Sequence record: SRR31156797_12395
Direction: 5' to 3' (one strand)
DNA length: 34,085 nt
Numbering within the stretch: the stretch's first letter is position 1; each line of letters starts with the position of its first letter. The position numbers and the translations under genes are program-made. This document shows, one piece after another, positions 1 through 33,209 of this stretch. The notes under the pieces are model-generated. The model saw only the letters and a list, made by a program, of their open reading frames with translations. It was not told the origin of the DNA and did not search any database.

Positions 1-152
<152 letters not shown>

Positions 153-190
153 TTAGAAATAAAATTTACAACTTCATTAAAAATGAGGTA

Positions 191-198
191 CAAAAGTA
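191..198 (-). promoter_or_regulatory. Bacteroidota sigma-A -7 element for gap
   Basis: Minus-strand TACTTTTG matches TAnnTTTG, about 50 bp upstream of the start codon. Confidence 0.65.
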
Positions 199-305
199 TA
201 AAATCAATAACAATTGGTCAAAAAAACTAGAAGGCTTTTTCTAAAATCAATATTAAAAAATGTAAAACGGCCCCAAAATATGCTCTACAGCATAAAATTA
301 GGCAC

Positions 306-341
306 AAAAAAAGGAGCAAAATATAATTTTGCTCCTTTTTT
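306..341. terminator. Intrinsic terminator (symmetric A/T flanks) downstream of the small lipoprotein gene
   Basis: AAAAAAGGAGCAAAAT-ATA-ATTTTGCTCCTTTTTT, a perfect stem with A/T tails. Confidence 0.85.
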
Positions 342-360
342 GGCTACAATTCTATATAGC

Positions 361-492
361 TTATACGTTTTCTGAATTCTTTTCTACATTTACTTTGCTA
401 TAAGCAGGACAATCTTCTGTGCTTTTGCAAGAACTTAATCCTAATGCAGTAAATAATACAACGGCTGCTACAACAAAAAAAGCTTTCTTCAT
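361..492 (-). CDS. Small (43 aa) putative lipoprotein with a C-x5-CPAY motif
   Basis: Manual translation MKKAFFVVAAVVLFTALGLSSCKSTEDCPAYSKVNVEKNSENV*: basic N-terminus, hydrophobic core and LSSC lipobox, followed by a terminator. Below the ORF-track size cutoff. Confidence 0.8.
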   Translation of the reverse strand: MKKAFFVVAAVVLFTALGLSSCKSTEDCPAYSKVNVEKNSENV

Positions 493-552
493 GACTTTTA
501 AATTACGATATAAATATTGATAGTTTCTTTAATTTCTTCTCACTGTTATAAT

Positions 553-578
553 AACGGGCTAGCTTAATTTTGGTTACA
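553..578 (-). promoter_or_regulatory. Putative ECF-sigma promoter for the small lipoprotein
   Basis: Minus strand TGTAAC-N16-CGTT, the AAC/CGT architecture typical of ECF sigma promoters, about 60 bp upstream of the ATG. Confidence 0.55.
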
Positions 579-711
579 TAATTGCTTCTTTTTATGATTA
601 ACATCTTATTATTAATGACCAACCCGTTTTTTAAATAGAATTCGAAGCACAGCGATAAAAATATGATTAATCTTTAAACGCTCAAAATATTATACCTTTT
701 TTATCTATAGC

Positions 712-1374
712 TTATCTCCTTTTTCTTAATCCTTTTAATTCAGAAAAAGCCCTTTCTACATCTTCGTCATGCACCAGTACGGTAAACTCATTAGTTGTAG
801 AAATCACTTCTGTTATATTAATACCTTCCCAGGCAATTGACTTTAAAATATAATAATAAAACCCAGGAACCTGCGTGTTGCTTTCGTGCAGTTTTAATGT
901 GATGGCAGAAAGATCTTCTTTTTTTTGCAATAATTCTTCATTATTAAAATATTGATTAACAAGTTCAGTATACATACTACTTATCACAAGGTTAGATTCA
1001 TGTACGCCTCTAACCAGCGTATAAAATATATCAGTGTGTTGGGATATAGCCTCAAATACGTTTTTATGGCATTTCGCCAGTGTATTGGAGTTCTTAAAAG
1101 TATAATCAGTTAAATCAGAGCGAACAATAATATCGCCCAACATGCTAATCATTTTATCTATTCCCCTGTTTAAATAAATATCAATTTGAGGAGAAAGACG
1201 ATTCAGCGCCATCACAATAGCACCATGTTTGGCATCTTTTGTTATTATCTTATCTACTTCAGGTTTTATTTTGCGTGATAAAGCAGAAATATTGATTAAT
1301 CCTTCAGCAAGTGCTTCAGCTATAAATGGTTTTGACTTGATTACAATTTCAACAGCTTGGGGTATTGTTATCAT
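712..1374 (-). CDS. ACT-domain protein with a putative N-terminal HTH (often labelled 'aspartate kinase' but has no kinase domain); probable amino-acid-sensing regulator
   Basis: 220 aa. N-terminal helical GLINISALSRKI segment; C-terminal ACT-like PGFYYYILKSIAWEGINITEVISTTNEFTVLV. Too short for a kinase domain. Confidence 0.7.
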   Translation of the reverse strand: MITIPQAVEIVIKSKPFIAEALAEGLINISALSRKIKPEVDKIITKDAKHGAIVMALNRLSPQIDIYLNRGIDKMISMLGDIIVRSDLTDYTFKNSNTLAKCHKNVFEAISQHTDIFYTLVRGVHESNLVISSMYTELVNQYFNNEELLQKKEDLSAITLKLHESNTQVPGFYYYILKSIAWEGINITEVISTTNEFTVLVHDEDVERAFSELKGLRKRR

Positions 1375-1399
1375 CTAATTATGTTTTAAATAATACAAG

Positions 1400-1417
1400 A
1401 TGTTAAAAATATAACAT
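1400..1417. promoter_or_regulatory. Palindromic candidate operator ATGTTA-N6-TAACAT
   Basis: Perfect 6-bp inverted repeat in the divergent intergenic region, 25 bp from the ACT gene start. Confidence 0.4.
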
Positions 1418-1473
1418 TTTGTTGAAAATTGGTTTTATTTGTCACTTAATTTTACTCTTTAATATTCGCCAAT

Positions 1474-1481
1474 TATATTTG
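1474..1481 (+). promoter_or_regulatory. -7 element (TATATTTG) upstream of dapA
   Basis: Exact TAnnTTTG match. Confidence 0.55.
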
Positions 1482-1606
1482 CGATGGATAAAATGAAAAT
1501 GTGTTTATGATTATTTGAATAAAGAAGATTTTGTTATGATCTCTTTTTTATACTTTTAAGCCGGAAAAGAAATACATTGTTAAAGATTGATTATTAAGAA
1601 TAAGTT

Positions 1607-2494
1607 ATGGCATTTACATTAAAAGGCTCTATTGTTGCTATTATTACGCCCTTTACGGAAACAGGTGAAATTGATTGGAATGCATTTGATAAACTAATCG
1701 ACTTTCATTTAAATAATGGAACAGACGGGATTGTAGTATGTGGAACTACAGGAGAAACGCCAACATTGACAGATGAAGAAGATGAGGCACTGGTTGAAAG
1801 AGCGGTAAAGAGAATTAATGGTAAAATTCCGGTTATAGCAGGTAGTGGAAGTAACTCTACTCAAACAGCCATAGACAAAACAAATAAGGCTAAAGAATTA
1901 GGTGCTGATGCTGCGCTGGTTGTTGTACCTTATTATAATAAGCCTACACAAAAAGGAATTTATGAGCATTTTAAATCAGTAGCAGAAGCCACTGATATTC
2001 CTATTATATTATATAATGTACCTTCAAGAACCGGAGCCGGATTAACACCGGAAACAGTGGTTCAGTTAGCTAAAGATTTTGATAGTATCGTTGGCGTGAA
2101 GGAAGCTGCAGGAGTAATGTCGTATTTTACTGAGATTATAGCCAATGCTCCGGAAGATTTTCTAGTATATAGTGGAGATGACTTTTTATCTAGCGCTGCG
2201 AACTTATTAGGTGCTGATGGGTGTATTTCTGTTATAGCTAATTTAATACCTGCCGATTTTCATCGATTAATGGAGGTTTCTATGAAAGGTGATGTAGCAG
2301 AAAGTAGAAGATTATTTTACAAGTATCAAAAAATAATGGACTTATGTTTTATTGAGTCTAATCCAATTCCGGTAAAAACAGCTTTAGCAGAAATGGGTTT
2401 TGTAAATGAAGTCTTCAGACAGCCATTATGTACTATGGAAGAGGATAATAAGAAACAGCTTTTAGAAGAATTAAAGTCTTTAGAGCTGATTTAA
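1607..2494 (+). CDS. dapA: 4-hydroxy-tetrahydrodipicolinate synthase
   Basis: GTTGE, PYYNKP, LYNVPSRT, catalytic GVKEA and NPIPVK motifs; 295 aa. Confidence 0.96.
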   Translation: MAFTLKGSIVAIITPFTETGEIDWNAFDKLIDFHLNNGTDGIVVCGTTGETPTLTDEEDEALVERAVKRINGKIPVIAGSGSNSTQTAIDKTNKAKELGADAALVVVPYYNKPTQKGIYEHFKSVAEATDIPIILYNVPSRTGAGLTPETVVQLAKDFDSIVGVKEAAGVMSYFTEIIANAPEDFLVYSGDDFLSSAANLLGADGCISVIANLIPADFHRLMEVSMKGDVAESRRLFYKYQKIMDLCFIESNPIPVKTALAEMGFVNEVFRQPLCTMEEDNKKQLLEELKSLELI

Positions 2495-2523
2495 AAATTA
2501 TATTTTGTTGGTGATGATTCAAG

Positions 2524-2552
2524 AAGGTCTTTCAATTAGGAAAGGCCTTTTT
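2524..2552 (+). terminator. Intrinsic terminator after dapA
   Basis: AAGGTCTTTC-AATTAG-GAAAGGCCTT followed by TTT. Confidence 0.75.
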
Positions 2553-2597
2553 GCCTTTATAGATATGTGCTTGCAGTTATAGAATAAAGTGGATTCG

Positions 2598-2605
2598 TAT
2601 ATTTG
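2598..2605 (+). promoter_or_regulatory. -7 element for the nitroreductase
   Basis: TATATTTG, 20 bp before the ATG. Confidence 0.65.
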
Positions 2606-2624
2606 TATCTGAAAAAATAATACT

Positions 2625-3368
2625 ATGGAAACAATATTAAATCATAAGTCAATTCGAAAATACTCAGAAAAAGATATTTCTCAGGATATTCTAGAGGATA
2701 TATTAATAGCAGGAACCAGAGCTTCAACAACTGGTAATATGCAGGTTTATAGTATTGTGGTGAGTAAAGATGCCGAAATGAAAGAAAAATTGGCACCATG
2801 CCATTTCAATCAACCGATGGTGAAGCAGGCGCCTGTAGTGCTAACTTTTTGTGCTGATTATAATCGATTTAATAAATGGTGCGAAGTTAGTAATGCAGAA
2901 CCTGGATATGATAATTTCTTATCCTTTGTAACAGGTGCAATTGATGCTTTATTGGCCGCTCAAAATGTTTGTCTGGCTGCAGAAAGTAAAGGATTAGGTA
3001 TTTGTTACCTGGGAACAACCATTTATACTGCAGATAAAATTATTGATATTTTAGATTTACCTAAAGGTGTTGTGCCGGTAACTACTGTAACTTTAGGTTA
3101 TCCTGATGAGCAACCGTCTTTAACCGATAGATTACCTCTGGAGGCAGTGGTTCATTACGAAAAATATAAGGGTTTCTCAGAAGATGATATAAAAGGGCTT
3201 TATAAAGAGAAGGAATCTTTAGCTGAAAATATAGGTTTTGTAAAAGAAAACAATAAAGAAAGTTTAGCCCAGGTTTTTACAGATGTAAGATATAAGAAGC
3301 AAGATAATATTACTTTTAGTAAAGTACTTTTAGAAGTATTAAAGAAGCAAGGATTTATGAATCAATAA
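2625..3368 (+). CDS. NfsA/FRP-type NADPH-dependent nitroreductase / flavin reductase
   Basis: HKSIRKY FMN-binding start, ASTTGNMQVYS, AAESKGLGICYLG, LGYP and DRLPLEAVVH motifs. Confidence 0.9.
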   Translation: METILNHKSIRKYSEKDISQDILEDILIAGTRASTTGNMQVYSIVVSKDAEMKEKLAPCHFNQPMVKQAPVVLTFCADYNRFNKWCEVSNAEPGYDNFLSFVTGAIDALLAAQNVCLAAESKGLGICYLGTTIYTADKIIDILDLPKGVVPVTTVTLGYPDEQPSLTDRLPLEAVVHYEKYKGFSEDDIKGLYKEKESLAENIGFVKENNKESLAQVFTDVRYKKQDNITFSKVLLEVLKKQGFMNQ

Positions 3369-3465
3369 GAAAAAGCAACGCATATTTTCTATTTTTTTTG
3401 AAAATTAAAAAATAAAGCGTTATATTGTTTTGCAATTTTGTTAAGAAATAATTAAATTGCTATCA

Positions 3466-3592
3466 GTATTGATTTTGATTATAAAATAATATTAGCAATT
3501 CATTTGTTTGTGTTGTGTGTTTTACAAATGAATTTTGTGTGTTGTGTTAGTTGAGAATGAAAAGGCTTATTTCCCCAAATAGGCCTTTTTCA
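3466..3592 (+). ncRNA. Candidate small RNA: hairpin with GU-rich loop, GU-rich linker and terminator (5' end approximate)
   Basis: Perfect 11-bp stem AATTCATTTGT(3497-3507)/ACAAATGAATT(3524-3534); TGTGTTGTGT at 3509 and 3538; terminator at 3560-3590; promoter-like TAAATTGC at 3453-3460; no convincing ORF. Confidence 0.45.
3560..3590 (+). terminator. Intrinsic terminator
   Basis: AAAAGGCTTATTT-CCCC-AAATAGGCCTTTTT. Confidence 0.8.
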
Positions 3593-3795
3593 ATTTAATA
3601 CGCTATACTTTCCGAAAGGTTATCTTTTCTATCCATTTTATTTTTAGACTTTATTTTCAGTAGAAGTATTTTCATTTCTTTCTATCGTGTTTTAATGTTT
3701 ACTGCATTATTATTTTGATTATTCCCTCAGTTAAAACTGATTTATATTTGAATCGGCATTTCTAGAGTTACACTATATTTTTTTAAAACATTTCT

Positions 3796-3877
3796 TTCAC
3801 GATATTTTCACTACATCGTGAAGCAACCGTGAAGTAATAGTGAAGAAGAAGTGAAGGAACAGTGAATGAATAACGAA
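3796..3877 (+). promoter_or_regulatory. Helically phased array of TTCAC/GTGAA sites (11-bp period) upstream of the GH81 gene
   Basis: TTCAC at 3796 and 3807; GTGAA at 3818, 3829, 3840, 3851 and 3862; degenerate ACGAA at 3873. A -7-like TTTCTTTG follows at 3885-3892. Confidence 0.75.
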
Positions 3878-4209
3878 TCACTTCTTTCTTTGTACCGAAT
3901 AATTCAAGTATGGCTTAAAAAGCAGATGACTAGGTAATAAGTCGTTAACCTGAATCGTGTTAAGTTAAAAAAAAGTAGTTTTAGCGTAGGTGCTCCATAG
4001 TTAAAACGTAGTTGTAAACTCTTCATTTAAGGTGTTTCTGTATAGGTTTGGCAAATCATATTAATGGTTGGGTTGATTAGGTAAAATCAATCTTGTACTG
4101 AATAATTACCAGCATACTTTTTCTTTTTTGATCTGCTATTCAGTGTTTGAAATCTACCTTATCAGCTTTATCTACCAGAAAACTATTGTTTAATTATTAA
4201 ATCTCTAAA

Positions 4210-7200
4210 ATGAAAAAAACACACTACGTTTTAATGTTAATTTGTGCTTTTATCCTAATGGGTCAAAGCACTGTTTTTTCTCAAACATCGGTTTCGGTAG
4301 GGAGTGGAAGTTACGCTTCTTATCCTCCTGCTGAAGAACTTCAATTTGAATGGGAGGGAGAAATATTTTATGATGATTACAATTTTGTTTATAACAATGA
4401 AATTTATGTAACTGAAGGTGAAACCAGACCTATACCTACGAACGACTGGTGGACGAATATTTTGGTTGAACAATATGGCGGTCTATTGTTTGCTTACCCT
4501 TTAGTTATGCAACCTCTTGAAAGCGGACTTCAAATACAATACCCAACTGGTTTTTCTGCCGATGGTAGTAATTTAGATCGGGGAACAGGTATTGTTGTTA
4601 AAGCTGCAGGTTTTGAACCTGACAAGGCTATTGCATCAGATTGGTCAGACTGGTTGGTAGAGATGAGCATGCCGGATGAAAGTACCGGAGTCAATATGAA
4701 AGTGACTATGGGGCATGGTATTCCATTTACATGGATTGAAACCAATGGCATGAATCCGGAAATATCTGCAGGCGCAGGTGCGGCATATTATACGGCTGAG
4801 GGAACGGAAGTGAGTTTTCCATTAGCGTCAGGTAGTTCATTTGTACTTTCATCAGAAGGACGTTTGTTTGGGATACATATGGGTGATGGCGTATCAGCAG
4901 AATTATCGGGACAGCAATATATTACCATAGATTTAGGGGCGAGCTATAGTCTTTCTGAAATTGATTTGCTTTGGGAGGCAGCCTTCGCATCCGCATATTC
5001 TATCCAGGTATCTGATGATAACTCAAACTGGACAACCTTGCAATCTGTTAGTAATGGAGATGGCGGGAATGATCATTTTTCAATATCAGGGAGTGGGCGA
5101 TATGTTAGAATATTGCTTTTAGAAAGAGGTACTATTTATGCATATTCTTTATTTGAAGTTGAGGTAATTAGTGAAGGAGTTAATGTAGCACTTAATAAAG
5201 ATGTAATGGCGTCCTCTTCACAAGCAGGATTTGTGCCTGAGGCGATTGTAGACGGTAATGAAGGTATTAGATGGGCTTCGGAAGCAAATGTGCAGGAATC
5301 ATTGGTTTTTAATATGGGTAATGGAAGTAATCACTTAGTCATATCTGCACTTACTCAATTTTCTGATTTAAGTACTTATGATGCTTTTGCACATAATAAG
5401 CCAACGGATACAGAGGTCGTTTATGATTATGATGTTGCTGGAGGTAAGGTAAATACTACATGGAATATAACTACAACAAACCTGGATGGAAGTGCTGCCG
5501 GAGATATGATTCAGGGTTTTATTCCGCACCAGTATAAGAATACCACATATTCTAATGTAAATTTTGTAGGAAACAATTATGTTACCGCAAGGGGAACTAT
5601 GAAAACGGCTTACGGTAGATCCTTTTCTTTTTCTTATCCATTTGGAGGAATTTTACCAAGTTTTACTGCTCCTTACAGTAATGATGCTGATACCAATCCA
5701 TATAGTGCCGATGTGCTTTATCAATTTATTACGGACTTTTCAGCTGCAAAAACAGGTTATGGTGCCGATACGTATTGGGGAGGTAAGGATCTCGTAAATT
5801 TAGCCAAATATACATTGATGGCTAAGGAATTAAATCATCAATCGTATGAATCACTAAAGGAAAGAACAAAAGCAGCTTTAATTGATTGGTTGACATATAC
5901 TCCGGGAGAAACATCAAAGTATTTTGCTCGCTACGAACGTTGGAAAGCTTTAATCGGATTTGATCAATCGTATGGTTCTGCTCAATTTACGGATAATCAT
6001 TTTCACTACGGATATTTAATTCACGCAGCCGGTTTATATGGTATGATAGACGATGATTTCTTAACTGATTATGGTGATATGTTAAAACTGGTTGCGCAGC
6101 AGTATGCAAACTGGAATAGAAACGATACATTTTTACCTTACTTCAGAACGTTTGACCCATGGATTGGTCATTCTTATGCAGGAGGAACAAGTTCTGGAGG
6201 AGGAAATAACCAGGAGTCTACTTCGGAAGCGATGCAGTCGTGGATTGGTTTATATTTGTTAGGGGATGCAATGGGAGATGCCCAGATGAGAGATGCCGGA
6301 GCTTTTGGTTATAGAAGTGAAGCTGCTGCCACATTGGAATATTGGTTTGATTGGGATGAAGAAAACCTTCCGGAAGCCTACGATCATAATATGGTAGGTA
6401 TTTTATGGAATGGAGGTTATTCATTTGGTACTTATTTTAGTGCGAGTCCGGTTCATATTCATGGAATTCAATACTTACCGGTTTGTCCGGGTTTTAAATA
6501 CCTGGCAGAAGATCCTGTTTGGGCAGCCCGCGAGTATACTGATATGATGGACGAAGCAGCAGTGCTTGATGGCCATAGTGATGAGATTGATTTTGGTGAT
6601 GATTGGGCACATGTGGCACTTGGTTTTAGAATGCTTTTCGATCCTGCTTATGTGGCTGACTTTATGGATACCAACATGGCATTAGGTAGTGAAGATTCAG
6701 ATTATATAATGGATTATGAGGTGGCAGGTATGAGTTATTTCTATACACATGCCATTCAAAACCTGGGAGACTTTTCCTTTAAATATCATACAAACTTTCC
6801 TTCAAGTAGTGTATTCGAAGAGAATGGAGTGTTTAGCAGAGCGGTGGTTTTTAATGCTTCTGGTACTGCAGAAACGTGTTATGTATACGATGCAAATGGA
6901 ACGGTTCAAGCCTCTTTCGAAGTACCTGCTAAAACTTTATATACTTATCCTGAGCTGCCGACAGACGGTCAGGAGCCAGAAAGCTGTTATGCATTATCTT
7001 CTGTTGCAACAGCCTCTTCGGGAAGTTCTAGTGTGGCCAGTGCGGTAGATGCCAGCATGGCAACCCGCTGGGTTGCAGAATCAACGGATGAAGAATGGGT
7101 CTTATTGGATTTAGGTATGCTATGTACGATAAGCCAAATTAGCATTGACTGGGAAGTAGCAAGTGCTGCTGATTACATTATCGAAGGATCTGTAGATGGT

Positions 7201-8049
7201 GCAGAATGGACTTCTATTCAATCTTATACAGGATTGTCGCAAGGTGATAGAACTGATGTGGTTGATAATCTGACTCAGGATCTTCAATTTGTCAGAGTAA
7301 CCATGACGGAGGCTGCAACGCCCTGGCCTTATTCTATTTTTGAAATAAGTGTATGTGGAAAGGTTGCAGAAGGTACTTATACAGGTCTTATTGAACCGAG
7401 TTTTATTGAGGCTGAAGACTATGTGAATATGAGCGGAATTCAAACAGAGCCTACAACAGATGTAAATGGTGGAATAAATGTAGGATGGATTGATGCCGGT
7501 GATTATATGGAATATGAAATTGAGGTTTATGAAGCAGGTACTTACAAGGTTGATTACCGGGTAGCCAGTATACCAGGTGGTGGTAATCTTCAGTTTCAAC
7601 TGAATGGAATTACCTTGTCCTCTACCATAGTAAATGCTACCGGAGGCTGGCAGAATTGGACAACATTAAGTACCAACGTTATTTTACCTGCAGGAACACA
7701 TGTTATCAGATTATATGCGGAATCGGGTGGATTTAATTTAAATTGGTTAGAAATATATAAACCGGGTATGAAATCAGGTAAGATATCTTCTCCATCTGAA
7801 AATACCATGGAGTCTGAATTTAAGCTATATCCAAATCCTGCAAAAGATGTTGTTTATATTAAAACTAGTGCAGATTTAGAAGGTCAAATTCAGGTGTTTG
7901 ATATGTCAGGTAAAATGATTTATACTTCTGAAATGGAGAGTGGATCACAATCTCATCAAATCAATCTTCAAGGTTGGGCAAAAGGTGTTTATAATGCAAG
8001 GGTTATTTCAGGTCAGCTTATTGTGCTTAAGCGATTTGTAGTGAAATAA
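4210..8049 (+). CDS. Secreted GH81 endo-beta-1,3-glucanase with two F5/8-type-C (CBM32-like) modules, a CBM6-like module and a T9SS C-terminal sorting domain
   Basis: Signal peptide; PTNDWW, DNHFHYGY and NQESTSEA (GH81 catalytic E-x-x-x-E); AVDA..TRW/LLDLG/FVRV F5/8 motifs (about 6991-7359); IEAEDY...GWIDAGDYMEY CBM6 (about 7402-7758); C-terminal LYPNPAKD...FDMSGK...GVY. Confidence 0.92.
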   Translation: MKKTHYVLMLICAFILMGQSTVFSQTSVSVGSGSYASYPPAEELQFEWEGEIFYDDYNFVYNNEIYVTEGETRPIPTNDWWTNILVEQYGGLLFAYPLVMQPLESGLQIQYPTGFSADGSNLDRGTGIVVKAAGFEPDKAIASDWSDWLVEMSMPDESTGVNMKVTMGHGIPFTWIETNGMNPEISAGAGAAYYTAEGTEVSFPLASGSSFVLSSEGRLFGIHMGDGVSAELSGQQYITIDLGASYSLSEIDLLWEAAFASAYSIQVSDDNSNWTTLQSVSNGDGGNDHFSISGSGRYVRILLLERGTIYAYSLFEVEVISEGVNVALNKDVMASSSQAGFVPEAIVDGNEGIRWASEANVQESLVFNMGNGSNHLVISALTQFSDLSTYDAFAHNKPTDTEVVYDYDVAGGKVNTTWNITTTNLDGSAAGDMIQGFIPHQYKNTTYSNVNFVGNNYVTARGTMKTAYGRSFSFSYPFGGILPSFTAPYSNDADTNPYSADVLYQFITDFSAAKTGYGADTYWGGKDLVNLAKYTLMAKELNHQSYESLKERTKAALIDWLTYTPGETSKYFARYERWKALIGFDQSYGSAQFTDNHFHYGYLIHAAGLYGMIDDDFLTDYGDMLKLVAQQYANWNRNDTFLPYFRTFDPWIGHSYAGGTSSGGGNNQESTSEAMQSWIGLYLLGDAMGDAQMRDAGAFGYRSEAAATLEYWFDWDEENLPEAYDHNMVGILWNGGYSFGTYFSASPVHIHGIQYLPVCPGFKYLAEDPVWAAREYTDMMDEAAVLDGHSDEIDFGDDWAHVALGFRMLFDPAYVADFMDTNMALGSEDSDYIMDYEVAGMSYFYTHAIQNLGDFSFKYHTNFPSSSVFEENGVFSRAVVFNASGTAETCYVYDANGTVQASFEVPAKTLYTYPELPTDGQEPESCYALSSVATASSGSSSVASAVDASMATRWVAESTDEEWVLLDLGMLCTISQISIDWEVASAADYIIEGSVDGAEWTSIQSYTGLSQGDRTDVVDNLTQDLQFVRVTMTEAATPWPYSIFEISVCGKVAEGTYTGLIEPSFIEAEDYVNMSGIQTEPTTDVNGGINVGWIDAGDYMEYEIEVYEAGTYKVDYRVASIPGGGNLQFQLNGITLSSTIVNATGGWQNWTTLSTNVILPAGTHVIRLYAESGGFNLNWLEIYKPGMKSGKISSPSENTMESEFKLYPNPAKDVVYIKTSADLEGQIQVFDMSGKMIYTSEMESGSQSHQINLQGWAKGVYNARVISGQLIVLKRFVVK

Positions 8050-8081
8050 ATTCGCATTAATAGTATCTTCATATAATTATT

Positions 8082-8115
8082 AGCCGGAGGGGAGTTGGTC
8101 TCCTTCGGCTTTCTT
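8082..8115 (+). terminator. Intrinsic terminator after the GH81 gene
   Basis: AGCCGGAGGGGA-GTTGG-TCTCCTTCGGCT-TTCTT. Confidence 0.8.
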
Positions 8116-8172
8116 ATTGCCGATTAGAATACAAAAAAAAGAGCAAAAATTCATAAGTTGGTTACTATAACT

Positions 8173-8324
8173 CTTTCCCTTAGCATTCTACATTGGTTTC
8201 TCTTACTATTCTACAATTATTTCCATTAGTATCTCACAATTGTTTCCCTTACCATTCTGTGATTATTTGTATTAGTATTCCGCATTTGTTTCCATTACCA
8301 TTCTACAAATGTTTCCATTACTAT
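8173..8324. repeat. Degenerate 23-bp tandem repeat, about 6.6 copies, consensus GTTTCCATTACYATTCTACAATT
   Basis: Units start at 8173, 8196, 8219, 8242, 8265, 8288 and 8311 (partial), with no indels and no spacers. Confidence 0.9.
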
Positions 8325-8468
8325 GGGTGGTTTTTCTCTATGTTAAGTGAGTTTTGTTAAATGAAATTGTTATTTCAGTCTAAAAAGTTATTTTTATTCG
8401 AATATTCACGACATATATTTAAAAAGGAATAAGTCAAAGCAAAAAATTGAAAATGAATAATTAATCTA

Positions 8469-11330
8469 ATGAAGAAAATCTTATTTATTCTTATCGTTTT
8501 TTACTTAACCACACCTGTTAGCAGTATCAATTTCAAAGGAGGATATCCATTTATAACTAATTATTCAAAAAAAGATTACAAAGTATCTAATAATAATCAT
8601 GCGATCATTCAGGATCAAAGAGGAGTGTTGTATTTCGCTAATGATTTTGGTATTCTGGAGTTTGATGGTCATACTTGGAGTATTATTCAAGTAGCAAGTA
8701 ATCATTCAAATATTAAATCACTAGCCTTCGATAATCATCATCGCTTGTATGTGGGCGCTCAGGGCGATATAGGATACCTTAGTTGTCAAGTACCTCATGG
8801 CCTTATTTTTAAATCGCTTGTAAATAAGATCCCTGTTTCTAAAAGAGGGTTTGGGGATGTAGAAAATACCTTTGTTCTTGAAAATTCGATCCTTTTTCAT
8901 AGTCACGAAAGTATATTTGTTTATGCCAATGATACTATTTCGGTTTATGAATTAGATGGAGGATGTAGCAATGCATTTCAGGTTCAGGACAGGATAATTG
9001 TTCAGGGTGTTGAGGGATTATTTGAATACCAATCAGAAGGACTAACCCCATTTCTGCAAGATAAAAGGATACTTGATGCTGAGATTGCAAATATTTTACC
9101 AGCAGAAGCTAACCGGTATATAATTGTGACACGCAAAAAAGGACTTTTTTTATTGGAAGATGGAAAGTTATTTTCATTACAGGTGAAGCCTCAAATCGAC
9201 TTTTCGATGGTAAATATAAACACTGCTGTATTAAGCAGAGATGGAGAAATAGTAATAGGTACCAACAGGCAAGGTCTTTATTTTATATCGCAGGAAGGAA
9301 GGATTCTCGAACATTTAAATAATACGAAAGGACTTCAGAGTAATGAAATTGAGTCTTTGTTTTTTGATCAATCAAATAACCTTTGGATTACAAATAATAA
9401 GGGAGTTGATTTTGTTGAAGTTGCTTCACCATTTTCCAGGTTTACTTCAAATATGAGCGAAGGGTATAATGTTTACGATGTTACTGTATTCCATAATTAT
9501 ATCTATTTAGCTACGCATAATGGTTTAAAGCTAAGTAGTGTAAAGTATAAAGATGATGTTTTTTCATTGACAAATACGTTTAAAAATATAGATGGAGCAG
9601 ACGATATAAACTGGAAACTTACGAAGATCAATGATCGTTTATTTGCTTGTCATGATAATGGCTTTTCGGAAGTAAAGGACGGTAAAGTCCTATATACAGT
9701 AAAATGCAATGGCGGATGGACACTTCAACCTATATCTGATAATGATGAAAGACTAATTGGGGGAACATATACGGGGCTGGTAAGTTTGGTAAAAGTAAAT
9801 GGGAGGTATCAATTAGAACATGAAATAGAGGGCTTTGGTGAAACATGTCGTTTGTTGGAAGTGGATTCTCAAGGCAATGTATGGATGGCACATGGTTATA
9901 AGGGTATTTATAAAATAATGCTATCTGAAGATTTTAAAAAGGTAGTCTCTGTTGCGTTTTATGATAAAAGTAAAGGATTGCCGGATAACCTGTACAACAG
10001 TGTGCTGAAAATTGATGATGAGATAATATTTGGAACTTCTAATGGGCTATATTTCTATGATGCAGAGAATGACACTATGCTTATTCATAAGGAACTGACT
10101 GAGCTCGCAGGCACTTGGCATAATGGACAATTTATTGAGCAGGACGATAATAAGAATGTGTGGTTTGTAACCGAAAATAGTGCGGGAATAATAAAACGAT
10201 TCGCAGGAGGAGGTCGTTATGTGGAGCAATTACCTTTGCTAAAATTGACTGATTCTTATATTCCGGGTTTTATTTCATTTGAACTGCTTAAAAATGGATC
10301 AGCATTAATAGGTTCAAATAATGGCTTGGTTTTTTATAACGACCGGAATAAGGATTTGAACCCCAAATTATTTCAGGTATTTATCCGGAATGTTAACACT
10401 TTGCATCAGGATAAATCAAAAATATACAGCGATCGTATTGATTACTTATGCGACACTCTTAAGCAGGAAGGAGTAAAATTACCCTATGATCATAATAGTC
10501 TTCATTTTGATTTTGCTACCGGTTTTTATGAAAATATAGAACACATTCGCTTTAAAGTATATTTAGAAGGATATGATAAGGACTGGAGTAGCTGGCAACC
10601 TGACTGGCATAAGGAATATACCAATTTGCGAGAGGGGGATTATGTTTTTAGGGTAAAAGCCCAAAATATTTATCATACGGTTAGCGATGAGGTGAAATTT
10701 CGCTTTACCATATTGCCGCCATGGTACAGAACCATCTATGCCTATGCGGTATATGTAATGCTTATACTGTTATTACTATGGTTGGTAATTAAGATTCGAA
10801 CAATCAGGATTTACAGGGAAAAGGAAAGTTTTATACAGGAGCAAAAGCGCGAAAGAGAAATTGAGCAATTGAGGTTTAAGGAAGAGAAATTAAACGATGA
10901 ACTTTTTAATAAAAATCAGGAATTATCTGGTTTGGCCATGAAGGTGATCTATAAAAATGAAAAGTTATCGGAACTCAAAGAAAAAGTTTCTTCAATAGAA
11001 GAGATGACTTCGGGAAGTATTTCTACAAAGATAAATGCTTTGCTTAAGTTTATTGATGCTGAGTTGAATGAAGATAATTGGGCTGATTTTGAGATGCGTT
11101 TTGACCTGGCACATAATAACTTTCTAAAGCGCTTAAAGTCGGATTATCCAGACTTGACATCCAAGGATTTAAAAACTTGTGCTTATTTACGTATGAATCT
11201 TTCTACAAAAGAAATAGCCCGATTGCTGAATATGACTGTTAGAGGAGTCGAAACAGCCAGGTATAGAATTAGAAAACGAATAGGTTTGGATTCAACAGAT
11301 AACCTGACTGATTTTATTTTGACTTATTAG
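8469..11330 (+). CDS. Membrane-anchored one-component sensor-regulator: periplasmic beta-propeller, Y_Y_Y domain, TM helix, coiled coil and LuxR-type HTH
   Basis: Signal peptide; propeller repeats (QDQRGVLYFA, DQSNNLWI, DSQGNVWM); YLEGYDKDWS..EYTNLREGDYVFRVKA; PPWYRTIYAY plus TM; LSTKEIARLLNMTVRGVETARYRIRKR. No kinase or receiver motifs. Confidence 0.9.
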   Translation: MKKILFILIVFYLTTPVSSINFKGGYPFITNYSKKDYKVSNNNHAIIQDQRGVLYFANDFGILEFDGHTWSIIQVASNHSNIKSLAFDNHHRLYVGAQGDIGYLSCQVPHGLIFKSLVNKIPVSKRGFGDVENTFVLENSILFHSHESIFVYANDTISVYELDGGCSNAFQVQDRIIVQGVEGLFEYQSEGLTPFLQDKRILDAEIANILPAEANRYIIVTRKKGLFLLEDGKLFSLQVKPQIDFSMVNINTAVLSRDGEIVIGTNRQGLYFISQEGRILEHLNNTKGLQSNEIESLFFDQSNNLWITNNKGVDFVEVASPFSRFTSNMSEGYNVYDVTVFHNYIYLATHNGLKLSSVKYKDDVFSLTNTFKNIDGADDINWKLTKINDRLFACHDNGFSEVKDGKVLYTVKCNGGWTLQPISDNDERLIGGTYTGLVSLVKVNGRYQLEHEIEGFGETCRLLEVDSQGNVWMAHGYKGIYKIMLSEDFKKVVSVAFYDKSKGLPDNLYNSVLKIDDEIIFGTSNGLYFYDAENDTMLIHKELTELAGTWHNGQFIEQDDNKNVWFVTENSAGIIKRFAGGGRYVEQLPLLKLTDSYIPGFISFELLKNGSALIGSNNGLVFYNDRNKDLNPKLFQVFIRNVNTLHQDKSKIYSDRIDYLCDTLKQEGVKLPYDHNSLHFDFATGFYENIEHIRFKVYLEGYDKDWSSWQPDWHKEYTNLREGDYVFRVKAQNIYHTVSDEVKFRFTILPPWYRTIYAYAVYVMLILLLLWLVIKIRTIRIYREKESFIQEQKREREIEQLRFKEEKLNDELFNKNQELSGLAMKVIYKNEKLSELKEKVSSIEEMTSGSISTKINALLKFIDAELNEDNWADFEMRFDLAHNNFLKRLKSDYPDLTSKDLKTCAYLRMNLSTKEIARLLNMTVRGVETARYRIRKRIGLDSTDNLTDFILTY

Positions 11331-11348
11331 TGTAAAGTTTAAAAAATA

Positions 11349-11380
11349 ACACAGAGGCACTAAGGCACTGAGTTCTGTGT
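11349..11380. repeat. Short hairpin enclosing three 8-bp units (CACAGAGG/CACTAAGG/CACTGAG) between convergent genes
   Basis: ACACAGA(11349-11355) is complementary to TCTGTGT(11374-11380); period-8 internal repeat. Confidence 0.5.
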
Positions 11381-11444
11381 ATTATTGTATCAATAAGATT
11401 TATCGATTTAAGTTATTTATTAATACATTCAATTAATGTAGAGT

Positions 11445-12089
11445 TCAATCTATGCTTGGTGAAGGAGTTAATACTTCTTCCACCCTTTTAAATAATTTTT
11501 TAGTTACATCTAAAGATGCTCCATTCATTGGATATAGCATTAATATAGAACTATCTTTAGATAAAAACCATAACTCTAATTTTCCATGATAAAACAACAA
11601 ATTATCCTCTTTGGCTTTTATTAGTTTATTTAAAAATTGAGTTTTACTACTTAAATCATGAAATTTCAGTTCTTCAATTGTTGATTCAATGATAGGGTAA
11701 TCATTATTAGAATTAAATCGAAAAACTAGATTACTTATATCTAAACTAGAGGTGTCTACTAAAATTTTATCATCTTGCACTTTTGTTTCATCGCGACTAT
11801 CTATCAAAACATCATTAATATAATCAAAAGTAACATAGCTTAAATCACTCTTGTCAATTGAAATTCGTTTGGGAGTAAAAATGATATCTTCATAATTTTC
11901 TAACTTTTTAAGTGAATCGTAAATAATAACTAAATTGTTATTTGAATTTAATGTAATCTTTGATTTGTTTTGAATTGTCTCATTATTCTCAACAATTTTG
12001 TCTCTTTCTAATGATTTATATTGATTCTTACCTATACACGAAACATTTAATATTATGGTGCAAATGATTATATAAATATTGTTCTTCAT
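11445..12089 (-). CDS. Hypothetical lipoprotein, very AT-rich
   Basis: 214-aa ORF; MKNN, hydrophobic stretch and NVSC lipobox-like site; no recognised domain. Confidence 0.65.
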   Translation of the reverse strand: MKNNIYIIICTIILNVSCIGKNQYKSLERDKIVENNETIQNKSKITLNSNNNLVIIYDSLKKLENYEDIIFTPKRISIDKSDLSYVTFDYINDVLIDSRDETKVQDDKILVDTSSLDISNLVFRFNSNNDYPIIESTIEELKFHDLSSKTQFLNKLIKAKEDNLLFYHGKLELWFLSKDSSILMLYPMNGASLDVTKKLFKRVEEVLTPSPSID

Positions 12090-12110
12090 TATTGATGAAG
12101 ATTAGGTTAA

Positions 12111-13187
12111 TTAGTTATTCTTAAATTCAATACCCAAAGATTCTCCCACTTTCTTTAAATCTTCGACAACGGGAGGAAGTAAATCAATTCCATCTTTCAT
12201 TCTTTGAGCTGAAATTTCTCTTTCCGGATCGCCAGGAACCAGTACCTGATCGTAACCTTCTGCAGGAACAGCATTTCTAAAGGTAGTAATCCAGTTATCC
12301 ATGTGTTTTTTAAATTCATCAGCAGGTCTGAAGGCGTCAATGCGCATGGCTCCTAAAAAGTGGCCAATGCCATCACCAACTGGATTCTCAGGTACAGGTA
12401 TATAGGAAACAAAAGGTGGTACCCAAGGACCATAATTGGCTCCAGGTAGCACTGCCGATAAAATATCTACTAATCCTCCTAAACAGTATCCTTTGTGACT
12501 TCCGTGTACTCGATCACTACCAAGCGGAAGCATGGCACCTCCTTTTTTTAAGATGGCTGCATCTGTCGATGGATTACCATTTTCATCTTGTGCCCAACCT
12601 AAAGGAATGTCTTCTCCCTTGCGTTGCAGAACTTCCAGTTTTCCATTGGCAACCGGTGTAGTGGCCATGTCGATCACTACCGGAGGTTGTTTATCGGCAG
12701 GTATAGCTACCGAAATAGGATTTGTTCCTAAAAACTTACTTTTAGAAAATGTAGGAGAAACCAGCGGACTGGCATTGGTCATTGACCAGCCAATCATATC
12801 TTCTTCCAAAGCCATCATAGAATGGTATCCGGCAATTCCGTAGTGGTTTGAGTTTTTTACAGCTACCCAACCTGTTCCTGCATTTTTTGCTTTCTCCATG
12901 GCTATTTTCATGGCTTTAGGAGCCACAACAAGTCCGGCACCTAAATCGCCATCAATAACGGCTGTACTTGGTGTTTCATGCACCACCTTAATATTTGGCC
13001 TTGCGTTAAGTCGACCTTTTTCCCATAAACGAACATAACCACCTAAGCGAGCCACGCCGTGTGAATCAACACCGCGAAGATCTGCAGAAATTAAAACTTC
13101 AGAAGCTAACATAGCATCATCTTCAGAACTACCCATTTTTAAAAATACCTGACGGGTAAATTCTTTTAAATATTGTACAGTATACAT
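12111..13187 (-). CDS. Ldh_2 family (AllD/YbiC/ComC-like) NAD(P)-dependent oxidoreductase
   Basis: ADLRGVDSHG, NSNHYG, GTNPI, DMATT and HKGY motifs. Start moved to ATG 13187 because the track's TTG at 13214 lies inside a TATCTTTG -7 element. Confidence 0.92.
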   Translation of the reverse strand: MYTVQYLKEFTRQVFLKMGSSEDDAMLASEVLISADLRGVDSHGVARLGGYVRLWEKGRLNARPNIKVVHETPSTAVIDGDLGAGLVVAPKAMKIAMEKAKNAGTGWVAVKNSNHYGIAGYHSMMALEEDMIGWSMTNASPLVSPTFSKSKFLGTNPISVAIPADKQPPVVIDMATTPVANGKLEVLQRKGEDIPLGWAQDENGNPSTDAAILKKGGAMLPLGSDRVHGSHKGYCLGGLVDILSAVLPGANYGPWVPPFVSYIPVPENPVGDGIGHFLGAMRIDAFRPADEFKKHMDNWITTFRNAVPAEGYDQVLVPGDPEREISAQRMKDGIDLLPPVVEDLKKVGESLGIEFKNN

Positions 13188-13211
13188 GTGTTTCCTTAAA
13201 AATGAAGTGCT

Positions 13212-13219
13212 CAAAGATA
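13212..13219 (-). promoter_or_regulatory. -7 element for the Ldh_2 gene
   Basis: Minus-strand TATCTTTG. Confidence 0.65.
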
Positions 13220-13248
13220 CAAAACTAATTTATGCACTTTGATTCGGT

Positions 13249-14391
13249 CTACTCAAAATCCAGATTTGTAATAAAAAAGTTAGGCGTAAAAACCACACTA
13301 ATTCCATAGGCGTAATCAAATTGTGAAGCATCCGGATCGAAATACGTTTCGAATTGAGCGTTAAAAGTTACTTTCTTCATCAGTTGTTTTGAGAAAGTGA
13401 ATTTGGTGTTTAGCAATTGCCTGTCTTTGGCATAAATGCCTGCTTCATGATCAGAAACAGAATGAAACAAGGCTGTGCCTTTTAGGGCATACCAGTCGCT
13501 CGATTTCCAGTAAGCCAACATAATTTCGCCATGTTTGTGGGCTAAAACTGCGGTAGGATAAAAAGCATATCCCATTTTAAAAGGTAAACCTTTGGCATCG
13601 GTTAAATCATTATACAAGGCTACATAAGGTGTAAAGCTTAGTTTGTTGATAAAAGCACCTTGTATTTCCTTTTGGACTTTTAATCCCGACACCATATTCA
13701 CTAAGGAATAAGATTCTATATCGTAATCACTGATTTGACCACCCAAATGAGAAGCCAGGAATTGAAAGGGGAGGGATATTTTAAAAGTGCTTTCTGCATC
13801 AGAAAACAAATACTCAGCACTGATTCCTCCGGTAAATTTTTCAGGAATATCATCTCCATGAAATATAAATTGTTCCCAATCGACCCAGGTATCCAAAAAT
13901 AGCTTGGGGCTTTGATGGATGAATTGCACGCCCGTTTCCTGTGGTCTGAAATATTGCCATTCAGAATTAAAAATAGGTTCAATTAAACGATGGTGAACAC
14001 TTCCTTTTAAATTTCCCAGAATCATATCCCATGTCTTACTTAATTGGGTATGGATGGAAACAACTGGTATCACTTCCGAAAATTCTTGGAGACCATCATA
14101 TTTTAAGGCATGTACTCCAATTTTTAACCTTACGTTTGATCCGGCATAGTACATGAGTGATGGTTCAAATGAATAACCAGGAAGGGTGTATCCTTCAGAG
14201 AATTCACCAAAGTATTCATCGTTCGTTAAAAAGTTGTTGCTTTCTAATCTAAAGAACAGTTTGTTGGCATCTTCTGCTTTAAATTCAGGATAGGTATAGC
14301 GCGAGGATTCGTTAATTTGTCCAACAGTATGCAACGATATGAAGCATAAACACCCAATTAATAAGAGCGCTTTTAATTTTTTAAAGACCAT
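13249..14391 (-). CDS. Hypothetical exported protein, probable outer-membrane beta-barrel
   Basis: Signal peptide; aromatic-rich alternating beta-strand patterns (LFLDTWVDWEQFI, FDYAYGISVVF). Confidence 0.65.
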   Translation of the reverse strand: MVFKKLKALLLIGCLCFISLHTVGQINESSRYTYPEFKAEDANKLFFRLESNNFLTNDEYFGEFSEGYTLPGYSFEPSLMYYAGSNVRLKIGVHALKYDGLQEFSEVIPVVSIHTQLSKTWDMILGNLKGSVHHRLIEPIFNSEWQYFRPQETGVQFIHQSPKLFLDTWVDWEQFIFHGDDIPEKFTGGISAEYLFSDAESTFKISLPFQFLASHLGGQISDYDIESYSLVNMVSGLKVQKEIQGAFINKLSFTPYVALYNDLTDAKGLPFKMGYAFYPTAVLAHKHGEIMLAYWKSSDWYALKGTALFHSVSDHEAGIYAKDRQLLNTKFTFSKQLMKKVTFNAQFETYFDPDASQFDYAYGISVVFTPNFFITNLDFE

Positions 14392-14454
14392 TTTTGTAAT
14401 TCGAAATCATGAATAAAAGTTTAGGAAGGAGGGTAGTTGTGAGCATAAAAATAT

Positions 14455-14489
14455 AAAAAAGCCGTAAATACAGTTGATTTACGGCTTTT
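14455..14489 (-). terminator. Intrinsic terminator after pheT
   Basis: AAAAGCCGTAAAT-ACAGTTG-ATTTACGGCTTTT with a T-tail on the minus strand. Confidence 0.85.
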
Positions 14490-14511
14490 ATTATAATTAA
14501 TTATTCGAGTT

Positions 14512-16965: not shown

Positions 16966-17038
16966 TGTACAATAATTTTACGCTAAATAATATGCACTAA
17001 AATCGGATGTTAGTTATCCGTAATTTTATTTAAGGCAA

Positions 17039-17046
17039 CAAAAGTA
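17039..17046 (-). promoter_or_regulatory. -7 element for pheT
   Basis: Minus-strand TACTTTTG. Confidence 0.6.
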
Positions 17047-17196
17047 ATTATTTTGAATTCAAGTTACCAAAATACACCTGAATTTTATTAATAATAGAAA
17101 AGAGATGATTTTAAGGAGTGTTGTATTACTTTAAAAGCATGGTTTCGCTTACACTATTTGTATGTATTGTTTTATTTAAAATCCCGCGATCTATTG

Positions 17197-33098: not shown

Positions 33099-33209
33099 GG
33101 TTTAAATGAAGTTTAGGATTTTTAATTGTAATTAATTATTCACAAAAATTACATAATTATTTCACTATTCCAATTGTTTGAAAGAGAATTATTTAAAAAA
33201 ATACATATG

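What the first reader, a model, noticed from the sequence alone, without database searches (positions are those of the whole stretch)
3796..3892. Seven-site operator lattice with exact 11-bp pitch in front of the GH81 gene
Seen: TTCAC(3796)-N6-TTCAC(3807)-N6-GTGAA(3818)-N6-GTGAA(3829)-N6-GTGAA(3840)-N6-GTGAA(3851)-N6-GTGAA(3862), plus a degenerate ACGAA(3873). The spacers differ while the pentamers are invariant. The left part is a nested dyad centred at 3814/3815; the right arm runs up to a non-consensus -7 element (TTTCTTTG, 3885-3892), and the last site lies about where the -33 element should be. Inference: about one site per helical turn would let a regulator nucleate at the dyad and oligomerise along one DNA face to activate a weak promoter. 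The obvious candidate is the membrane-tethered LuxR-HTH sensor at 8469-11330. This is my best candidate for an undescribed regulatory mechanism in the window.
Basis: partly seen in the sequence, partly recalled or inferred. Interest (0 to 1): 0.75.

Follow-up and report, generated by a model that had tools for sequence, protein, structure and literature searches.

The report
Phased GTGAA site array, binder unknown
A run of seven identical five-base sites, one per DNA turn, really does sit upstream of a glucanase gene and recurs elsewhere in related bacteria, so it is probably a docking array for a still unidentified DNA-binding regulator and not for the neighbouring sensor gene.

Summary
TTCAC sits at 3796 and 3807, and GTGAA at 3818, 3829, 3840, 3851 and 3862, at an exact 11-bp pitch, far beyond chance. 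The array is not unique to this gene. The same layout occurs at the orthologous locus of a 95-97% identical Saccharicrinis MAG (L053), at a second locus of that MAG (L045) and in another Saccharicrinis MAG (L114); a looser relative lies in a Paludibacteraceae MAG (L055). All 20 direct pentamers in the four arrays are invariant. In the ortholog the surrounding 228 bp is only about 78% identical, yet all seven sites and their phase are kept. That ortholog lacks both GH81 and the Y_Y_Y/LuxR regulator: window 3989-12138 is an 8.15-kb strain-specific segment. No regulator homologue lies within 10 kb of any other array fetched. I read the array as a helically phased, multi-site operator or upstream activating array for an unidentified DNA-binding protein. 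It most resembles the multi-direct-repeat sites of OmpR/PhoB-type regulators. It controls whatever transcription unit lies downstream. The LuxR assignment and the proposed -7/-33 placement are not supported. One-face cooperative binding is a known mechanism. Moderate interest.

The parts
3796..3811 (-). Left arm: two inverted sites (TTCAC at 3796 and 3807), in phase with the direct run
   Evidence: Identical in ortholog L053. Present as nnCAC in phase in L114. Shifted by 1 bp in L045.
3818..3866 (+). Core: five direct GTGAA sites at an exact 11-bp pitch; unit consensus A-GTGAA-G-S-A-A-Y
   Evidence: Exactly five perfect GTGAA in all four arrays; 20 of 20 pentamers invariant.
3873..3899 (+). 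In-phase degenerate sites (ACGAA 3873, CCGAA 3895) and the conserved post-array block CGAATCACTTCTT (3874-3886)
   Evidence: an nCGAA site lies in register after the run in all four arrays (index 5 to 7). L055 has TCGAA in phase, followed by TCACTCTT.
3925..3946 (.). 7-bp inverted repeat with an 8-bp spacer, lying between the array and the downstream -7-like box; a possible second operator or an RNA hairpin
   Evidence: Perfect in L053. One arm position changes on both sides between window and L053 and pairing is kept.
3976..3983 (+). Degenerate -7-like box (last base differs). The ortholog has a perfect match here, and homology to the ortholog ends about 5 bp further on.
   Evidence: The -7 consensus is recalled, not taken from a call.
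4043..4050 (+). Perfect -7-like box inside the strain-specific segment, 160 bp before the GH81 start codon; candidate GH81 promoter
3743..3750 (+). Perfect -7-like box 46 bp upstream of the array, conserved in L053. If used, the array would be transcribed.
   Evidence: No equivalent box upstream of the L045 or L114 arrays.
3761..3988 (.). Diverged segment holding the array: about 78% identical to L053, against about 99% immediately upstream
   Evidence: identity per 30 nt.
3989..12138 (.). 8.15-kb strain-specific segment (GH81, Y_Y_Y/HTH regulator, 214-aa predicted lipoprotein). It is absent from the orthologous MAG locus, which has about 290 unrelated bp instead.
4210..8049 (+). GH81 glucanase with F5/8-type-C and CBM6 modules and a T9SS C-terminal sorting domain
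8469..11330 (+).
   Evidence: GerE E=0.0014, below the Pfam cut-off; Sigma70_r4_2 4.6e-6; MctR 2.4e-5. The AF2 model has low confidence.

Best explanation
The array is a helically phased, multi-site DNA operator or upstream activating array for a sequence-specific DNA-binding protein that is not yet identified. One protomer would read each AGTGAAG core in successive major grooves on one face of the helix, with the A-rich four bases between cores lying in the minor groove (inferred). Five direct sites plus two inverted sites would give cooperative, concentration-sensitive occupancy (inferred). The array is one member of a small dispersed family in Saccharicrinis, and perhaps more widely in Bacteroidia. 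It sits about 85-170 bp upstream of -7-like promoter boxes and would control whatever transcription unit lies downstream. In this strain that unit is the GH81 gene. In a near-identical relative it is a short non-coding stretch, and at a paralogous locus it is a lipoprotein/OMP/DUF4249/TonB-receptor cluster. In architecture it is closest to the multi-direct-repeat sites of OmpR/PhoB-family winged-helix regulators. It is not specifically the operator of the adjacent Y_Y_Y/LuxR sensor. Shown here: the array, its family, site-specific conservation and the absence of linkage to the regulator. Inferred: protein binding, the type of protein, and activation.
For: The array is exact and non-random.

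Family: the genome scan returned the same 2-inverted + 5-direct layout in L053 and L045 (one Saccharicrinis MAG) and in L114 (another). Paralog flanks are unrelated: blastn similarity between window and L045 is limited to 44 bp of the array.

Ortholog L053: all 35 pentamer positions are identical against 32 of 42 spacer positions (Fisher p=0.0013). The 15 pentamer positions that the search pattern did not require are all kept (P=0.015 at the local 75.6% background identity).

The unit divides into about 7 constrained bases plus a 4-base A-rich part.

All arrays lie in long non-coding regions: 840 bp in the window, 1414 bp in L045.

In L055 the array stands in the opposite orientation to the gene it precedes. 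That fits a DNA-level element better than an RNA-level one.

Precedent: ArcA sites hold 2-5 direct repeats at 11-bp centre-to-centre spacing (PMC3798270, passages).
Against: No binding protein is identified. No gene with an OmpR-type DNA-binding domain lies in the window or in the L045 flanks.

Inverted sites next to direct ones are not the canonical OmpR/PhoB layout.

The family rests on 3 independent loci plus 1 ortholog plus 1 tentative relative. All were found with a pattern that required four perfect GTGAA, so much of the pentamer invariance among paralogs is by ascertainment.

No transcription start is known. -7-like boxes are common in this AT-rich DNA (8 hits with up to 1 mismatch in about 1200 nt of the window), so the distance to a promoter is weak evidence.

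The genes next to the arrays share no clear functional theme beyond secreted or outer-membrane proteins.
Confidence: 0.5

Rival explanations
1. The membrane-tethered Y_Y_Y/LuxR-type sensor (8469-11330) nucleates at the dyad, spreads along one face of the helix and activates a weak GH81 promoter.
For: The regulator gene lies 4.6 kb downstream in the same strain-specific segment as the array's diverged allele. It has a sensor, a membrane segment and a weak LuxR/GerE-like HTH. LuxR-annotated genes are often the first gene of laminarin gene clusters (PMC13188888, passage). A LuxR/NarL-type activator, BvgA, binds one monomer per helical turn on one face, from an upstream high-affinity site down to the -35 region (PMC7250471, passages). 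The central TTCAC-N6-GTGAA pair is a dyad.
Against: Ortholog L053 keeps the whole array but has neither GH81 nor the regulator, and no remnant of either. 0 of 122 fetched loci hold a homologue of the regulator; L045 and L055 each have up to 10 kb of context per side where the contig allows. The regulator's own upstream region has a different 23-bp repeat and no GTGAA array. BvgA dimers are head-to-head, whereas 3818-3866 is five direct sites. TTTCTTTG is not kept in L053. Caveats: the MAG could encode the regulator elsewhere, and the loss of the segment could be recent. Neither could be checked.
Confidence: 0.12
2. The array is a degenerating or structural 11-bp tandem repeat with no specific binder. 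It could be a slippage-born minisatellite, or phased A-rich DNA that bends the helix. It would persist because it is young or homogenised by unit gain and loss.
For: TRF calls it a period-11 repeat. The window's units 2-5 align best with L045 units 1-4, which suggests unit turnover. L055 has seven nearly identical units, as expected of a recent expansion.
Against: Mutation is not spread evenly over the unit: 0 of 35 pentamer positions differ from the ortholog against 10 of 42 spacer positions. Positions +6 and +9 vary within every array while GTGAA never does. All four arrays have exactly five perfect sites, and the flanking inverted sites and in-phase nCGAA sites also recur. Bending would not need an invariant GTGAA.
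Confidence: 0.15
3. The element acts as RNA. Transcription from the consensus box at 3743-3750 would put (GUGAA-N6)x5 into a long leader, where a protein or a fold acts on it.
For: A perfect -7-like box lies 46 bp upstream, conserved in L053. The long non-coding stretch downstream and the strand-asymmetric, purine-rich units would suit a leader. The left arm can pair with the first direct sites. A small hairpin at 3925-3946 keeps pairing through a change on both sides.
Against: No Rfam match above chance. Fold energies are unremarkable: z=-1.15 for 3757-3900, and -0.71 and -1.13 for the downstream parts. L045 and L114 have no equivalent upstream box. In L055 the array lies on the opposite strand to the flanking genes. 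An exact 11-nt pitch together with an inverted arm is a property of duplex DNA.
Confidence: 0.08
4. The array is an iteron-type site for a partition, replication or recombination protein (an RHH ParR-like protein, a Rep, or a recombinase arm site). It would mark the edge of a swappable segment and would not be a transcriptional operator.
For: It consists of five 11-bp direct repeats, the same as one half of the R1 parC centromere (PMC2241845, passages). The array lies exactly at the left edge of the strain-variable segment, where identity falls from 99% to 78% at about 3761. In L114 a perfect 13-nt inverted repeat brackets the array. In L045 two MITE-like copies flank it.
Against: No par, rep, integrase or transposase gene is present in the window or in the L045 flanks. 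The context is chromosomal housekeeping genes (dapA, pheT, lpxB, dnaN). blastn finds nothing similar in the plasmid or phage collections. The right end of the variable segment has no matching array.
Confidence: 0.1

Closest known systems
Multi-direct-repeat operators of OmpR/PhoB-family response regulators, e.g. E. coli ArcA (PMC3798270)
   Same: Direct repeats with 11-bp centre-to-centre spacing and 2-5 contiguous elements, giving long, concentration-sensitive occupancy on one helical face (passages). The unit divides into a conserved core plus an A-rich remainder (the comparison with the PhoB unit is recalled).
   Different: A different core sequence. Two inverted sites abut the direct run. 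The binder is unknown, and no winged-helix regulator gene lies nearby. The phylum is Bacteroidota, where I found no description of such a site.
BvgA (LuxR/NarL-type) arrays at the Bordetella fha and ptx promoters (PMC7250471)
   Same: One monomer per helical turn, all on one face, with a strong site furthest upstream and weaker sites running toward the promoter (passages).
   Different: BvgA binds as head-to-head dimers every 22 bp, so half-sites alternate in orientation. Here five sites in a row point the same way. BvgA's most promoter-proximal dimer abuts the -35 region, whereas here the conserved -7-like boxes lie at least 85 bp beyond the last GTGAA.
parC centromere of plasmid R1, bound by ParR (PMC2241845)
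   Same: Sets of five 11-bp direct repeats, each bound by one dimer, doubling as an operator (passages).
   Different: parC has two sets flanking its own promoter and sits next to parM and parR on a plasmid. Here there is one direct set plus two inverted sites, on a chromosome, with no par genes.

Membership tests
OmpR/PhoB-type multi-direct-repeat operator | Direct repeats at about 11-bp centre-to-centre spacing | tested here: met
   Five GTGAA at exactly 11 bp, with the same pitch in L053, L045 and L114.
OmpR/PhoB-type multi-direct-repeat operator | Two to five contiguous repeat elements | tested here: met
   Five perfect direct elements in each of 4 of 4 arrays. The range comes from PMC3798270.
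OmpR/PhoB-type multi-direct-repeat operator | All elements head-to-tail | tested here: not met
   Two sites, at 3796 and 3807, are inverted relative to the run.
OmpR/PhoB-type multi-direct-repeat operator | Bound by a winged-helix response regulator | not testable with these tools
   No such gene is in the window or in the L045 flanks. The rest of the genome was not available.
BvgA-like one-face array of a LuxR/NarL-type activator | Half-sites paired head-to-head, with dimer centres every 22 bp | tested here: not met
   Only the pairs around 3814/3815 are inverted. Sites 3818-3866 are all direct. The feature comes from PMC7250471.
BvgA-like one-face array of a LuxR/NarL-type activator | Array abuts the core promoter (-35 region) | tested here: inconclusive
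   No transcription start is known. TTTCTTTG at 3885 is not conserved in L053. The perfect -7-like boxes are at 3743 and 4043.
BvgA-like one-face array of a LuxR/NarL-type activator | A cognate LuxR-type regulator co-occurs with the array | tested here: not met
   Present only in the window. 0 of 122 fetched loci, including L053, L045 and L055, hold a homologue. Genome-wide absence was not tested.
R1 parC-type iteron centromere | Two sets of 11-bp iterons flanking a promoter, next to partition genes | tested here: not met
   One direct set only, and no par genes among the 24 ORFs scanned. No plasmid match.
Plain tandem repeat (minisatellite) | Head-to-tail copies that diverge evenly along the unit | tested here: not met
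   TRF finds period 11, but differences are confined to spacer positions: 0 of 35 against 10 of 42 in the ortholog, p=0.0013.

The most novel reading that the evidence does not exclude
The fixed layout (two inverted sites, five direct sites, then in-phase weak sites) is the docking platform of an undescribed Bacteroidia regulator that assembles a defined oligomer or short filament on one face of the DNA. The array with its promoter forms a conserved control module under which different cargo is exchanged between near-identical strains: a GH81-plus-sensor cassette here, a short non-coding unit in the sister genome, and an outer-membrane uptake cluster at a paralogous site.
Probability: 0.15. 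Interest if true: 0.65.

Novelty: new variant of a known kind. Interest (0 to 1): 0.4.

Why it matters
Almost nothing is known about how marine Bacteroidia outside the SusR, hybrid two-component and ECF paradigms switch on secreted glycanases and outer-membrane uptake systems. A short, highly constrained motif that recurs in several Saccharicrinis genomes gives a concrete bait for finding the regulator, by pull-down or footprinting, and for defining its regulon by a genome scan. The comparison with the sister genome also gives a caution. The gene next to an operator-like array need not be its partner: the array outlives the GH81/sensor cassette, so assigning a regulator by adjacency would probably be wrong here.

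Tried and rejected
- **Rfam.** At relaxed threshold on 3300-4300, and at gathering threshold on the whole window and on L045, L053 and L114, there were only two chance-level hits (E 0.3) and nothing at gathering score.
- **Sigma-70 and terminator scan.** 3300-4300 gave no more promoter-like sites than shuffles and no terminator call. This scan does not model Bacteroidota promoters.
- **RNA folding.** The leader and the downstream segments gave z-scores from -0.7 to -1.15, which is not distinctive.
- **Plasmid and phage collections.** blastn of 3761-3990 found no match in either.
- **Shared sequence beyond the array.** Among the paralog flanks only chance-level 9-15-mers appeared.
- **Second copy in the window.** Only a weak two-site match at 33139-33165, within chance.
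- **Remnants of the island genes.** Searching L053 for GH81, the regulator and the 214-aa gene found none.
- **Genes next to Bacteroidales-type GTGAA arrays.** 35 neighbours of 17 loci were scanned. They are a different family, in part next to 23S_rRNA_IVP genes, and say nothing about this array.
- **PDB sequence search with the regulator's C-terminal 89 aa.** Only spurious top hits; LuxR-type chains appeared at E about 0.8-0.9.
- **AF2 model of the cytoplasmic part.** Too uncertain (mean pLDDT 66) to justify a fold search.
- **Literature.** Searches for a described GTGAA 11-bp site, a Bacteroidota Pho box, or a binding site of Y_Y_Y/LuxR regulators found none. This covers only the open-access library searched.
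- **Sigma-54 and ECF promoter readings.** I considered both for the post-array block by eye and dropped them, because spacing or conservation did not fit. No tool test was run.

Full report
**Observation**

The sequence is as described. TTCAC lies at 3796 and 3807. GTGAA lies at 3818, 3829, 3840, 3851 and 3862, and ACGAA at 3873. All are 11 bp apart, and both inverted pairs are centred on 3814/3815.

All five exact GTGAA-N6-GTGAA matches in the 34-kb window lie in the array. With up to one mismatch there are 9 matches against a shuffle mean of 2.29, and 0 of 100 shuffles reach 9. GTGAA itself is at its expected frequency, 66 against 67.8. Tandem Repeats Finder gives period 11, 4.8 copies.

**Surroundings**

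The array lies in an 840-bp non-coding region (3369-4209). Upstream is a nitroreductase-family gene (2625-3368, +). Downstream is a 1279-aa GH81 protein with F5/8-type-C, CBM6 and T9SS sorting domains (4210-8049, +). The array ends 333 bp before the start codon.

- a signal peptide;
- Reg_prop and Y_Y_Y sensor modules;
- a hydrophobic segment;
- a coiled coil;
- a C-terminal HTH that matches GerE only weakly (E=0.0014, below the Pfam cut-off), Sigma70_r4_2 at 4.6e-6, and NarL-type regulators at 2.4e-5.

A single-sequence AF2 model of the cytoplasmic part was of low confidence (mean pLDDT 66). "LuxR-type" is therefore plausible but only weakly shown.

Upstream of that gene there is a different tandem array at 8174-8324: period 23, 6.4 copies, with no GTGAA sites.

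**Relatives**

Most hits are unrelated 11-bp tandem repeats that happen to contain GTGAA.

Three hits share the window's layout: L053 and L045, both from Saccharicrinis MAG OY781921.1, and L114 from Saccharicrinis MAG OY763044.2.

Each array has exactly five perfect GTGAA. These are preceded by two inverted sites:
- TTCAC in phase in the window and L053;
- nnCAC in phase in L114;
- shifted by 1 bp in L045.

Each run is followed by an in-phase nCGAA site.

Over the 20 direct units, GTGAA is invariant. A precedes it in 17. The following positions read G in 16, variable, A in 19, A in 17, and T or C in 16. The unit is therefore about seven constrained bases plus an A-rich four, not a pentamer in a free spacer.

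The pattern I searched with required four perfect sites. Part of this invariance is therefore ascertainment.

A profile of the four arrays, which match it by construction, picked out one further locus clearly above the rest: L055, a Paludibacteraceae MAG, at 41 bits. L055 has seven direct units and then, in register, TCGAA followed by TCACTCTT. The window has CGAATCACTTCTT at 3874-3886. I treat L055 as a tentative distant relative.

**The ortholog**

L053 is the same locus in a close relative. Window 1-3988 aligns at 97.2% and window 12139-17109 at 95.7%. Window 3989-12138 has no counterpart; about 290 unrelated bp stand in its place. That window-only segment carries GH81, the Y_Y_Y/HTH gene and a 214-aa predicted lipoprotein. 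No remnant of those genes is left in L053.

Identity is about 99% up to about 3760. It then falls to about 78% from 3761 to 3988. The array therefore lies in a diverged segment at the left edge of a strain-variable region.

Within that segment all 35 pentamer positions are identical, against 32 of 42 spacer positions (Fisher p=0.0013). Counting only the 15 pentamer positions that my search pattern did not demand, full conservation has P=0.015 at the local background identity of 75.6%.

Homology to L053 ends about 5 bp after a -7-like box. That box is perfect in L053 and has one mismatch in the window at 3976-3983. The shared part thus looks like array plus promoter, and the differing part looks like what is transcribed. 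The -7 consensus I used is recalled, not taken from a call. Such boxes are frequent in this AT-rich DNA, so this is suggestive only.

**Paralogs**

In L045 the array sits in a 1414-bp region. On one side is a divergent hrpB-type helicase gene. On the other is a cluster encoding a lipoprotein, a small beta-barrel-like protein, DUF4249, a TonB-dependent receptor and a PepSY_TM protein.

Similarity between L045 and the window is confined to 44 bp of the array. Nothing beyond chance is shared in the flanks.

In L114 only 638 bp are available. An ORF starts about 165 bp to the left of the inverted sites (about 190 bp from the first GTGAA) on the other strand and runs off the locus.

In L055 the array lies between the stop of a sigma-70-like gene and the start of the next gene. 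Both are on the strand opposite to the GTGAA run.

**The LuxR assignment**

- tblastn with the regulator finds no homologue in any of the 122 loci. Among the arrays with context, only the window's has such a neighbour.
- The regulator's own upstream region carries a different repeat.
- In the one well-studied case where a LuxR/NarL-type activator lines one face of the helix (BvgA), monomers sit one per turn but as head-to-head dimers every 22 bp, down to the -35 region (PMC7250471, passages). Here five sites in a row are direct.
- The proposed -7 element TTTCTTTG is not conserved in L053.

Caveats: the MAG may encode the regulator elsewhere, and the loss or gain of the segment could be recent. 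Neither could be checked, because no further genome scan was available.

**An RNA reading**

A perfect -7-like box at 3743-3750, kept in L053, could drive transcription through the array. Against this:
- Rfam finds nothing.
- Predicted folds are not more stable than shuffles (z=-1.15, -0.71 and -1.13).
- L045 and L114 lack such a box.
- The L055 array is on the other strand from its neighbouring genes.

A 7-bp inverted repeat at 3925-3946 keeps its symmetry through a change on both arms between the window and L053. It could be a small hairpin or, equally, a second dimer-type operator.

**Most likely mechanism**

The pentamer-specific conservation, the exact helical pitch, the mix of orientations, the recurrence at unrelated loci and the intergenic position together point to a DNA element read by a protein: one protomer per turn on one face, with cooperative filling of five to seven or more sites.

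The closest documented architecture is the multi-direct-repeat site of OmpR/PhoB-family regulators. ArcA sites have two to five direct repeats at 11-bp centre-to-centre spacing, and occupancy depends on their number and strength (PMC3798270, passages).

Five 11-bp direct repeats also match one half of the R1 parC centromere bound by ParR (PMC2241845, passages). Nothing else here is plasmid-like.

Whether the array activates or represses, and from what distance, is inferred and not shown.

**Novelty**

One-face, one-site-per-turn cooperative arrays are well known. The motif, its fixed 2+5 layout, its occurrence in Marinilabiliales and the unknown binder are new as far as my searches go (in the open-access library only). 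I rate it a new variant of a known kind, of moderate interest.

**Limits**

- Flanks were fetched for only 80 loci.
- L114 has almost no context.
- No expression or binding data exist.
- The supplements of the cited papers were not consulted.

Noticed in passing
window 8174-8324: A second, unrelated tandem array lies between the GH81 terminator hairpin and the Y_Y_Y/HTH regulator gene: period 23 (or 46), 6.4 copies. It is inside the strain-specific segment. It may be the regulator's own operator. Bacteroides LytTR-like operons are reported to have 11-bp repeats at 22-bp pitch (PMC6193735, passage).
   Followed up: partly
window 3989-12138: An 8.15-kb segment (GH81, sensor/regulator, 214-aa lipoprotein) is present here. 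In the orthologous locus of a 95-97% identical Saccharicrinis MAG it is replaced by about 290 unrelated bp. The last codons of the adjacent Ldh_2 gene also differ between the two.
   Followed up: yes
window 3925-3946: A 7-bp inverted repeat with an 8-bp spacer lies between the array and the next -7-like box. It is perfect in L053, and one position changes on both arms between the two genomes.
   Followed up: partly
L045 9513-9659 and 10231-10377: Two 95%-identical 147-bp copies of a MITE-like element with 18-bp terminal inverted repeats flank the paralogous array. The element is found in no other fetched locus and not in the window.
   Followed up: partly
L114 223-235 and 371-383: A perfect 13-nt inverted repeat brackets the array, with 135 nt between the arms, and a further 21-nt pair at 81% lies beside it. 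This could be an invertible or hairpin-forming segment.
   Followed up: no
L002, L022, L046 (also L013, L030, L035, L037, L059, L076, L079, L109): Rumen and gut Bacteroidales carry a different 11-bp array (GTGAA followed by a G/A-rich hexamer) that ends in a fixed last unit. In 3 of the 3 loci where I identified the small neighbouring gene, it is a 23S_rRNA_IVP / bAvd-like four-helix-bundle gene.
   Followed up: partly
L032, L069, L095, L122: Chitinophagaceae-type loci carry palindromic 11-bp arrays: several TTCAC-containing units, then their mirror image with GTGAA, forming long perfect hairpins.
   Followed up: no
L007 9432-9469 and 9580-9617: A Prevotella MAG has two four-unit arrays of a similar purine-rich unit in inverted orientation, 110 bp apart, next to LPD3 and D12 methyltransferase genes (probably a mobile element). 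The same flanks recur in L044 and L121.
   Followed up: no
window 27367-28605 (-): In this ORF the T9SS sorting domain matches residues 47-119, ahead of the Fib_succ_major domain at 198-411. That is the reverse of the usual C-terminal position. The start may be mis-set, or two genes may be merged.
   Followed up: no
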